From: Octopus vulgaris
Lineage: Eukaryota
Direction: 5' to 3'
Assembly: GCA_951406725.2 (NCBI GenBank)
Contig: OX597838.1
Span: 14,074,001-14,138,000 of the forward strand
Length of the DNA: 64,000 nt
Shown one piece after another: positions 36,201 to 39,200 of this stretch. Every line of letters begins with the position of its first letter. The first letter of the stretch is position 1. The notes below the pieces were generated by a model. It made no database searches. It saw only the letters and a list, made by a program, of their open reading frames with translations, and was not told the origin of the DNA. The position numbers were made by a program, and so were the translations under genes.

Positions 36201-39200
36201 CTGGTTTGCCAGCCTTCAGTCAAAATCGTTCTGTCCCTGCGTTTGTGGAGACTCCACGGCAAACAGGGCGTCCTGTCACTTGGGATATGCATGCAGGATG
36301 TCGGGGACAGCTTGTGAATTCAATATTCCCACAAAACTTCTTCTAGAAGAAGCCGGCTCAAGCCGCCCTGGGTGAACGCCGTCACAAGTACAAGTAAGTA
36401 CTAGTCCCTCTGGTGGTGAGGATTGACCTGCAGGAGTTCTGTGCTGGTACTATGGAAAAAGCACTTGTGGTGGTGCCACGTAAAAGTGCCCATGTGGTGC
36501 CACGTAAAAGTGCCCATGTGGTGCCACGTAAAAGCACCTGTGTGGTGCCATGTACAAGTGCCCATGTGGTGCCACGTAAAAGTGCCCATGTGGTGCCACA
36601 TAAAAGCATCTGTGTGACACCACATAAAAGCACCTGTGTGGTGCCATGTACAAGTGCCCATGTGGCACCACATAAAAGCACCTGTGTGGTGCCATGTACA
36701 AGTGCCCATGTGGCACCACATAAAAGCACCCAATACATTCAGTAAAGTGGTTGGTGTCTGGAAGAGCGTCCAGCTGTAGAAACCATGCCAAATCAGACTG
36801 GAGTCTGGTGCAGCTCCCCAGCTCTGGTCAAACCGTCCAACCCATGCCAGCATGGAGAAAAGGCATTAAATGATATTGATGATGAAGATATATGTTGATA
36901 CATATACTCTCTCTCACACACATACACATATGTATGTATATATGTATGTGTGTATATATGTGTGTGTGTGTGTGTATATATGTGTGTGTATATATATATA
37001 TATGTGTGTGTGTGTGTGTATATATGTGTGTGTATATATATATATATGTGTGTGTGTGTATATATATGTGTGTGTGTGTATATATATGTGTGTATATATA
37101 TATATGTGTATGTGTGTGTATATATATGTGTGTGTGTGTATATATATGTGTGTGTATATATATATGTGTGTGTGTGTGTATATATATGTGTGTGTGTGTG
37201 TATATGTGTGTGTATATATATATATGTGTGTGTGTGTGTGTATATATGTGTGTGTATATATATATATGTGTGTGTGTGTGTATATATATGTGTGTGTGTG
37301 TATATATATGTGTGTGTATATATATATGTGTATGTGTGTGCATGCATATACATATGTAATACTACATATCTTTGTGTCTATGTGTGTATGTATTTTTACA
37401 ATTAGAATCTTAAATTGTTTTAAATTCTTATATATATATATATATATAGAACATTATTGGTGAATTGAAGAAATGGAGCTGAACGCAGATTGAACAGAAA
37501 TCGTTTTATTTCATTCTACACGTGTTTCGAAAGGCACAAATTACCAAAATCCGATGGAATAATGGGACCATATTGTGTCTTTCTCTTCAGGAAGAAAATA
37601 GGAAATCCGTTGGAAAAACAAAATTTTGATTAATCTACTACAAGATTATTCATCTTTCTATTTCACATAATATATATATATATATATATATATACACGCG
37701 CACGCACACACACACACACACACACACACACACACACACACACACGCATATATATATATATAAAATAAAATTTAGTAATACTTTTGCTGAATTCCAAGGT
37801 GACTTGCATTCGTCTGTATATTCCTTTTCATCAGTATTGTTGAATAGGTCAGCCTAAAATGGTAAAGTAGCATTAATGTTAGCATTCTTGGTAATATATT
37901 TCTAAGGAGTGATTTCTATTTTTTTTTTTTTTTCAATGGAAAGAAGACATATCAAAGGAGTTACTATCTTTGGTTTAGAAAATGGGAAAGTTATCTTCAG
38001 AATGAAGACTTAGCCAAAATACAACAGAATCACTTGTTAAGGTCATCTCTATACATATTCTATAGAAATTATAGCCAGCAGTGATTTCTGTTACAACACT
38101 TTGTATCAGAGATGTCAGATGTAAATAAACATTGAGATTAAAGATGAAAAAAAGGGTAATGGGGATATATGTTATATATTATTTACATTATTTACATTTG
38201 ATGGATATTTGTCCTCATCTTGTTTGCTGTTAACACGTCTTTTCTGATATAGTCTCCAACCTTCATCAGGTGTCTTGGGCAAATTTCGAACCTGGGTTCT
38301 CATTCCTAAGTTATTTTTTGATGTTGTTGTTGTTATTATTATTATTATTATTACTATTATTATTATTATTATTCAGGTCACTGCCTGGAATCGAACTCGG
38401 AATCTTTCTCAAACATATTCAAACTGGAAATAAGTTTGCATATATTATCATCATCATCATTTTAATGTCCATTTTTTCCATGCATGCTTAGGTTGGCAGA
38501 ATTTTTAACGGTTGAATGGCCTTCCTGTCACCACCCTTACCTGTTTCCATGCAAACTAATATTTCCTCTGACATGATCTTGCAGAATATTGGAAATGAAT
38601 AACACTGCTTGTATGACAGTGACACTCATTTACTGGGAAAATCTAGACCAAGTTTCGTTTTTGGATTTGGTTTGCAAGATTCTTTATGTGAGTTCTTGTG
38701 TTGAAGCATATTCTGTTGTGTCTGGAGAAAGTCATTTTCTTTTTGTGCCTTATAATTTAACACACTCACCAGTAAAATTTCCACTTATTTCTTATTTTTA
38801 TTTATTTATTTTATTTATTTCTTAATCTTATTTTCGTTGCAAGACGAAACGAAAATTTTAGGAAAATAAAAATAAGAAATTAGTGGAAATTTTACTGGTG
38901 AGTGTGTTAAATTATAAGGCACAAAAAGAAAATGACTCTCCTCAGACACAACAGACTAGACAAAGTTATATAATGTAAATATTTCACAGGGTCTCTGTAG
39001 GGCTGTCCTCTTAGTCAACTGGTAACAACTTGCTGTAATATGTTGTAAGAACAGCAACTGGTCGGGGTTCATTTGTAACAGGCTGAATGACAAGGGACTA
39101 GTCAGAACTGGCTGTAACAGGTTGTATGTGCAGGAACTAGTTCTGACTTGCCACAGACGTTTGTATAGAAGAGAATTAAGTACGACTTGTTAAGACAGGT

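What the first reader, a model, noticed from the sequence alone, without database searches (positions are those of the whole stretch)
37440..37853. Intact sense-strand intronic hammerhead ~180 nt downstream of the candidate cassette exon
The canonical hammerhead at 37598-37508 lies on the PTP pre-mRNA strand just 3' of the donor of the 72-nt candidate exon (37782). Its host element (~37445-37670) is absent from the paralogous duplicated segment at 34930-35183, so it most likely inserted after that duplication. Co-transcriptional self-cleavage could influence exon inclusion or transcript output; this is inference by analogy to intronic ribozymes such as the one in CPEB3.
Basis: partly seen in the sequence, partly recalled or inferred. 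Interest (0 to 1): 0.7.

Follow-up and report, generated by a model that had tools for sequence, protein, structure and literature searches.

The report
Jumping-gene hammerhead stub in octopus intron
The self-cutting RNA motif is really there, but it is one of about 1,460 exact matches left in this octopus genome by a jumping gene (a Penelope-like element), it likely needs a partner copy to cut, and the neighbouring exon is real and likely far older, so this copy is most likely a passenger and not a splicing switch.

Summary
Observation largely confirmed; interpretation mostly not supported. A type I hammerhead core lies at 37600-37507 (-), sense to a PTPRR/PTPN5-like gene, 181 nt after the donor at 37782. 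Its 224-nt host is a truncated, inverted stub of a Hydra-clade-like Penelope element. The stub has two arms and sits in (TA)n: 177 of 177 nt match the 3' UTR of a 3,624-bp element with an open 895-aa ORF, and 51 nt are its inverted tail. A 28-mer across the cut site occurs 1,461 times in the genome (control 0). Stem III is a short palindrome of the dimer type. The active monomer fold is predicted to be rare, and no same-family partner lies in 284 kb. The 72-nt exon is real: it is spliced in an RNA contig and is in Octopus and Argonauta models. No skipping was seen, so 'cassette' is unsupported. Side result: 11 of 48 fold-back copies end on both arms at the predicted cut, a hint that the family's ribozyme cuts in vivo. 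Activity of this copy and its presence in other individuals are untested. The scan has noted such stubs before on other DNA.

The parts
37447..37623 (-). Inverted arm of the stub: 177 nt of the 3' UTR (pseudo-LTR) of a Penelope-like element, from 106 nt before to about 70 nt after the predicted cut; the outer end runs into (TA)n
   Evidence: 177/177 identical to L031:4473-4297 and three further tandem units; many other copies end at the same point
37507..37600 (-). Type I hammerhead: stem I 5' strand 37600-37591, core from C3 37590, long stem II, G12 37528, stem III palindrome 37525-37518, N17 A37517, predicted cut 37517/37516
   Evidence: sequence, pattern scans, constrained folding
37620..37670 (+). 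Second arm: the last ~51 nt (3' tail) of the same element in opposite orientation, ending in (TA)n; joined to the first arm over a 4-nt overlap (37620-37623)
   Evidence: 98% to the element's tail; a 30-mer over the junction is unique in the genome
37670..37762 (.). (TA)n / (CA)n / (TA)n microsatellite on the exon side; with the (TA)n at about 37427-37446 it is the likely target
   Evidence: (TA)n preference of Hydra-clade PLEs (PMC8557442 section 11)
37782..37853 (-). 72-nt in-frame AG/GT exon (24 aa) inside the PTP catalytic domain; real, no skipping seen
   Evidence: RNA contig of run X17 joins it directly to exon 40517-40380; depth arithmetic fits the same in X19 and X20; present in P0081, P0084, P0082, 22-aa homologue in Argonauta P0059
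40380..40517 (-). Upstream exon of the PTPRR/PTPN5-like gene
   Evidence: Pfam PF00102 E 5e-16; homologues named PTPRR/PTPN5-like; RNA contigs
35600..35713 (-). Downstream exon; its acceptor is about 1.8 kb after the predicted cut
34931..35183 (-). Partial duplicate of the exon's 3' part and following intron, without the exon's acceptor and without the element; lies in the next intron
   Evidence: 95% over 86 nt and 81% over 93 nt; alignment

Best explanation
The hammerhead is the 3'-UTR ribozyme of a high-copy, likely young Penelope-like retroelement, carried into the intron as a truncated, inverted stub, and this lone copy is likely too slow to cut the pre-mRNA before splicing, so it is likely a passenger. 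Shown: identity to the element's end, the two-arm layout, (TA)n at both ends, copy number, no same-family hammerhead in 284 kb, and the exon being real. Inferred: the element's endonuclease nicked a TA repeat; two cDNAs were primed, one at the RNA's 3' end and one about 70 nt after the cut site, and were joined back to back. The second cDNA ran through the cut site, so its template was uncut, and any such arm longer than about 155 nt carries a whole hammerhead. Sense orientation is then a coin toss. Predicted: the 8-nt palindrome forms a stable stem III only with a second copy, as in tandem element transcripts; alone, the core is mostly trapped in a competing hairpin.
For: 177/177 identity to a 3,624-bp tandem element whose ORF is open for 895 aa in 2 of 3 units examined. 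RT and GIY-YIG-type motifs match the Hydra clade. 1,461 exact 28-mers, 741 forward and 720 reverse, control 0, about one per 1.9 Mb. L002-L005 show the same short layout with different junctions. Active monomer fold is predicted at 0.8% for the isolated 95 nt and about 1e-5 in 177- and 383-nt context; double hammerhead -43.5 versus -31.8 kcal/mol for two free monomers. No second same-family hammerhead in 284 kb around the gene. A minimal metazoan PLE hammerhead gave no cleavage as a single motif and little as dimer (PMC4209133, parts 1-2 of 4). The anole PLE hammerhead did not cut without the element's protein (PMC11167929, parts 1-2 of 4). Slow intronic ribozymes did not affect splicing (Fong 2009 as cited in PMC10919898; original not held). 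The exon is shared with Argonauta.
Against: No cleavage assay. The folding model ignores tertiary contacts and I ran no known-active control, so the low probabilities may understate activity. Counted as two pairs plus a tetraloop, stem III resembles invertebrate retrozyme hammerheads; one from coral cut at about 0.8 per min, and axolotl monomers reached 6-22% in an hour (PMC7229834, passages). Fold-back copies pile up at the cut site, so the family's ribozyme is probably not dead. The RNA runs may come from animals without this insertion, so exon inclusion there does not test its effect. A preprint reports retrozymes excluded from introns in Xenopus, which suggests such insertions can cost the host (10.64898/2026.07.22.740005, abstract and part 1 of 5).
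Confidence: 0.85

Rival explanations
1. The lone copy cuts fast enough as a monomer to break some pre-mRNAs before the next exon is made, lowering output of the phosphatase as an accidental, unselected side effect.
For: Core intact and identical to the source element; active fold only 1.7 kcal/mol above the minimum for the isolated motif; some invertebrate hammerheads with a short stem III cut well (PMC7229834, passages); hint of in vivo cutting in the family.
Against: Palindromic stem III, long stem II, active fold about 1e-5 in context; only 1.8 kb to the next acceptor, about half a minute at the mammalian rate quoted in PMC10919898; tested PLE hammerheads are slow or protein-dependent (PMC4209133, PMC11167929).
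Confidence: 0.09
2. The copy is cut in trans: transcripts of other family members pair through the palindrome and stem I, or the element's protein chaperones the fold, so cutting depends on element activity in the tissue.
For: Double hammerhead is predicted to be favourable; family sequence occurs in a spliced-RNA run (X17); protein assistance was shown for the anole element (PMC11167929).
Against: A bimolecular step within about a minute at low concentration is unlikely (inference). The stub lacks the element's ORF and most of the tail; where this family's protein binds is unknown.
Confidence: 0.04
3. A domesticated CPEB3-like regulator that controls inclusion of a cassette exon.
For: Sense orientation, 181 nt from a donor, in a gene named PTPRR/PTPN5-like. 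Conserved intronic hammerheads exist in amniotes (PMC6155905, passages).
Against: Zero divergence from a 1,461-copy element leaves no sign of selection. The exon is likely much older than the insertion and no skipped form was seen. A second, unrelated sense hammerhead sits in another intron of the same gene, so such motifs are not rare here.
Confidence: 0.02

Closest known systems
Hydra clade of C-terminal-endonuclease Penelope-like elements, including Hydra-1_Obim of Octopus bimaculoides (Craig et al. 2021, PMC8557442; section 11, passages, supplement rows and part 2 of 59 read)
   Same: Single ORF with RT then GIY-YIG-type domain, RW and DKT motifs, CxxC and CxH at the C-terminus, sense hammerhead in the 3' UTR with a short palindromic stem III, (TA)n targets, inverted 5'-truncated copies.
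   Different: Longer (3.6 kb, 895 aa, against mostly under 3 kb); the CxCX5C linker is degenerate and there are long inserts in the linker; the hammerhead sequence differs from the one tabulated for Hydra-1_Obim (compared by eye), so it is a different family.
Dimer-type hammerheads of metazoan PLEs and amphibian retrozymes (PMC4209133, parts 1-2 of 4; PMC7229834, passages; PMC6765202, passages; Lunse et al. seen only as a citation)
   Same: Type I topology, intact core, tiny palindromic helix III, enlarged helix II.
   Different: Here a solitary copy in a host intron; not tandem, not a retrozyme repeat; stem II is longer than in the tabulated examples.
CPEB3 intronic ribozyme (PMC10919898, passages) and ultraconserved amniote intronic hammerheads such as RECK (PMC6155905, passages)
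   Same: Sense-strand self-cleaving motif in an intron.
   Different: Those are conserved across species, and CPEB3's is a measured-active HDV-like fold; this is one of more than a thousand near-identical mobile copies with no shown activity or conservation.

Membership tests
Type I hammerhead ribozyme | Conserved core (CUGAnGA, GAAA, UH) with stems I and II in type I order | tested here: met
Type I hammerhead ribozyme | Match to an Rfam hammerhead model | tested here: not met
   no hit at gathering score in the window, none among 27 matches at E<=10; the long stem II is the likely reason (inference)
Canonical monomer-active type I hammerhead | Helix I about 6 bp and helix II about 4 bp with loop contacts; active fold favoured as monomer | tested here: inconclusive
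   stem II is extended, stem I is interrupted after 3 bp, active fold predicted rare; tertiary contacts not modelled, no active control run
Type I hammerhead ribozyme | Self-cleavage after N17 | not testable with these tools
   indirect only: fold-back copies end at the predicted site
EN+ Penelope-like element (source element) | Single ORF with RT and C-terminal GIY-YIG endonuclease | tested here: met
   895-aa ORF; YRDD and a VY...YVG endonuclease motif, aligned to 7 homologues. The Pfam copy held gave no hit
EN+ Penelope-like element (source element) | Tandem units, inverted 5'-truncated copies, optional tail, hammerhead in the pseudo-LTR | tested here: met
   3,624-bp tandem array with an inverted flanking copy; core starts 597 nt after the stop codon; two end points at about +60-70 and +216 from the cut
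Hydra clade | RWK and DKT motifs; CxxC and CxH at the endonuclease end | tested here: met
   IRWL (K replaced), SDKTR, CNLC, CPH
Hydra clade | CxCX5C linker | tested here: not met
   only one Cys at the aligned place; present in 27 of 30 homologues checked, the other 3 being short and lacking the endonuclease end
Hydra clade | (TA)n target preference | tested here: met
   window copy and the nine loci printed
Hydra clade | Placement inside the clade on an RT tree with the published references | not tested
   reference proteins were seen only in the paper's supplement and compared by eye
Non-LTR retrozyme | Short non-coding tandem repeat with one hammerhead per unit | tested here: not met
   single stub; source unit is 3.6 kb and coding
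Domesticated intronic ribozyme (CPEB3, RECK type) | Locus-specific copy conserved at the orthologous site across species | tested here: inconclusive
   not distinguishable from the mobile source; contigs of other organisms stop in the microsatellite before the site
Cassette exon | Both inclusion and skipping forms exist | tested here: inconclusive
   inclusion shown; no skipping seen, but contigs drop rare forms and 70 joints were not shown

The most novel reading that the evidence does not exclude
This family's hammerhead cuts in vivo, as the fold-back insertions whose two arms both stop at the cut site record, and its recent burst scattered hundreds of identical ribozymes into sense introns. 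The copy here would sever nascent RNA of a PTPRR/STEP-like phosphatase, alone or by pairing in trans through its palindrome, and act as an insertion-dependent dimmer on that gene: the raw starting state of a CPEB3-like domestication. I put the first half (family cuts in vivo) at about 0.55 and the whole claim much lower.
Probability: 0.08. Interest if true: 0.65.

Novelty: new member of a known kind. Interest (0 to 1): 0.2.

Why it matters
As a host regulator it probably does not matter. Two things are worth keeping. First, the genome holds a young Hydra-clade-like Penelope family with open full-length ORFs, usable for mechanism work. Second, fold-back copies that end at the predicted cut would be indirect in vivo evidence that a PLE hammerhead cleaves. 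That role is called unclear in PMC8557442, and no reads ended at the site in the anole study (PMC11167929). One search for such a report listed two papers, neither on this point by title or abstract start; most subscription papers are not searched.

Tried and rejected
Rfam: no hammerhead hit. Free folding: no excess stability. Pfam on the element ORF and three homologues: no families. Presence or absence in other individuals and species: unresolved. DNA contigs of organisms B and C cover 37775-38025 and end in the microsatellite, and the same-species run X6 covers only 37863-38025; no listed piece bridges the copy's own junction, but 930 pieces were not shown. No RNA holder on record; the runs used are guessed RNA, though X17's contig shows an exon-exon join. 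Summed contig depth was not used as a copy number. 'The exon is a repeat fragment': rejected; of 46 matches only the local duplicate and the site itself cover it, the rest match 38029-38120 (40 of 975 candidates scored). 'The stub is a non-autonomous family': rejected, its junction is unique. Simple truncation test: 22 hits at the cut against 21 at -11 (not inspected) and 2 at +16, so raw counts show no clear excess. An apparent frameshift near the ORF start is confined to 1 of 12 loci checked. Lunse et al. and Fong et al. were not held. No paper in the library holds both Octopus and PTPRR; the hammerhead-Penelope-Octopus search listed 4 papers, one relevant by title.

Full report
The observation. 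On the - strand a hammerhead core is present, with C3 at 37590, G12 at 37528 and N17 at A37517, so the predicted cut is 37517/37516. Stem I is 3 bp, a one-by-one mismatch and 6 bp. Stem II is long and interrupted. Stem III is two pairs and a 4-nt loop inside an 8-nt palindrome at 37525-37518. Rfam found no hammerhead here, and the free fold is no better than shuffles. The motif lies 181 nt after the donor at 37782; the cut is 265 nt after it and about 1.8 kb before the next acceptor. PTP exons run on the - strand on both sides, so the motif is sense.

The host element. A genome search with 37445-37670 gave 68 matches from 40 scored of 1,222 candidates, most of them 100% identical over 177-179 nt, with the other 51 nt matching separately in opposite orientation. 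Four matches spaced 3,624 bp apart led to a tandem array. Its ORF is open for 895 aa in 2 of 3 units examined; the third has a 1-nt shift near the start, seen in 1 of 12 loci. The protein has RW, DKT, YRDD, a C-terminal VY...YVG endonuclease motif, CxxC and CxH. These match the description of the Hydra clade of Penelope-like elements (PMC8557442 section 11), except that the CxCX5C linker is degenerate. Its best named homologue is from Argonauta. Craig et al. list Hydra-1_Obim from Octopus bimaculoides and tabulate sense hammerheads with short palindromic stem III for the clade (supplement). I compared these by eye and built no tree. The window copy is two arms joined over 4 nt: 37623-37447 is 177/177 identical to the 3' UTR, and 37620-37670 is the inverted tail; both outer ends run into (TA)n. 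The junction is unique, and L002-L005 show the same layout with other junctions. A 28-mer across the cut site occurs 1,461 times (741 forward, 720 reverse; control 0); many insertions hold two. At one per 1.9 Mb, a gene of at least 144 kb has about a 7% chance to hold one and half that in sense (arithmetic).

The exon. It is real. In run X17 (guessed RNA) one 1,310-nt contig covers 40379-40518 at positions 262-401 and 37782-37853 at 401-472, and its loose end is the upstream exon. In X19 and X20 the depth in the exon's bin equals the upstream exon's contig depth times 71/109, as in X17, which I read as the same join. The downstream join was not displayed; it comes from protein models. The 24 aa are in P0081 and P0084 (named Octopus vulgaris) and P0082 (O. 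sinensis), with a 22-aa homologue in Argonauta P0059. The O. bimaculoides models P0060 and P0087 break off before it. It is absent from the Sepia model and from the other mollusc models that span the site; Capitella has a different insert there. DNA contigs of organisms B and C carry the exon with one change. So the exon is likely much older than an undiverged insertion. No skipped form was seen, but contigs drop rare forms, and these animals may lack the insertion. The duplicate at 35183-34931 holds only the exon's 3' part, no acceptor and no element.

Would it cut? Untested. ViennaRNA puts the active monomer fold at 0.8% for the isolated 95 nt and about 1e-5 in 177- or 383-nt context, because the stem I 5' strand pairs with the core; 18 C does not help. 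A double hammerhead scores -43.5 against -31.8 kcal/mol for two free monomers. These numbers ignore tertiary contacts and had no active control. In 284 kb around the gene there is no second hammerhead of this family; a sense motif of another family lies at 61815-61728 with a different palindrome and stem I. In print: a minimal PLE hammerhead was inactive alone and weak as a dimer (PMC4209133). The anole PLE hammerhead needed the element's protein, and no RNA reads ended at its site (PMC11167929). Axolotl monomers with short helix III cut 6-22% in an hour, while a coral one cut at about 0.8 per min (PMC7229834), which leaves room for monomer activity. CPEB3's ribozyme has a 2-3 min half-life over 9.9 kb, and slow intronic ribozymes did not affect splicing (PMC10919898 citing Fong 2009). 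With 1.8 kb to go, this copy would need a half-life near a minute or less (inference).

Side result: does the family cut in vivo? A pattern for copies that break at the cut gave 22 hits against 21 and 2 at two control sites, no clear excess. But many of the 22 are fold-backs in which both arms stop at the cut. I then collected all 50 fold-backs found by three anchored patterns covering about -39 to +18 and dropped 2 as likely duplicates. Of 48, 11 have both arm ends within 4 nt of the cut, all blunt, 1-nt overlapping or with untemplated letters. Other clusters sit on palindromes with 8-nt overlap (-16, -9) or on a TA stretch (+7). This fits reverse transcriptase running off a cleaved RNA end. 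I rate it about 0.55. The window copy itself runs through the site, so its template was uncut.

Verdict. A real hammerhead motif, ordinary in origin: a new family of a known kind, here as a lone stub. Passenger 0.85; accidental monomer effect 0.09; cutting in trans 0.04; domesticated regulator 0.02. Fixation of the insertion and any activity remain open. Supplements of the bioRxiv preprint could not be seen and may bear on intronic depletion of such motifs.

Noticed in passing
window 37853-37782 (-): The exon adds 22-24 acidic residues inside the PTP catalytic domain in Octopus and Argonauta models only, with a Ser/Thr-Pro-Trp kept in both. From recall, this is the E-loop region, and the protein has a kinase-interaction-like motif near 62506-62414, so a MAP-kinase site is conceivable.
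   Followed up: partly
window 61815-61728 (-): Second sense-strand intronic type I hammerhead-like motif in the same gene, another family, palindromic stem III.
   Followed up: no
window 12333-12404 (+); also about 92848 and 211157 in window-relative coordinates beyond the end (+): Further hammerhead-like motifs of other families.
   Followed up: no
window 38270-38225 (-): Degenerate minimal-hammerhead-like repeat in the intron upstream of the exon; the second core half is broken.
   Followed up: no
window 34931-34911 (-): The duplicate segment ends in about 20 nt identical to part of exon 40517-40380 (near 40427-40408), suggesting a templated, template-switching insertion.
   Followed up: partly
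window 38400-38476 and 39460-39384: 77-nt inverted duplication, 93.5% identical, within the upstream intron.
   Followed up: no
L031:4140 to L032:9090 (G000:C1:119514140-119529090): Array of three full and one partial 3,624-bp units plus an inverted piece, flanked by a 517-bp inverted duplication of host DNA; units 99.9% alike.
   Followed up: partly
L091-L140: Fold-back insertions of the family; 11 of 48 end on both arms at the predicted cut, others at palindromes or a TA stretch.
   Followed up: yes
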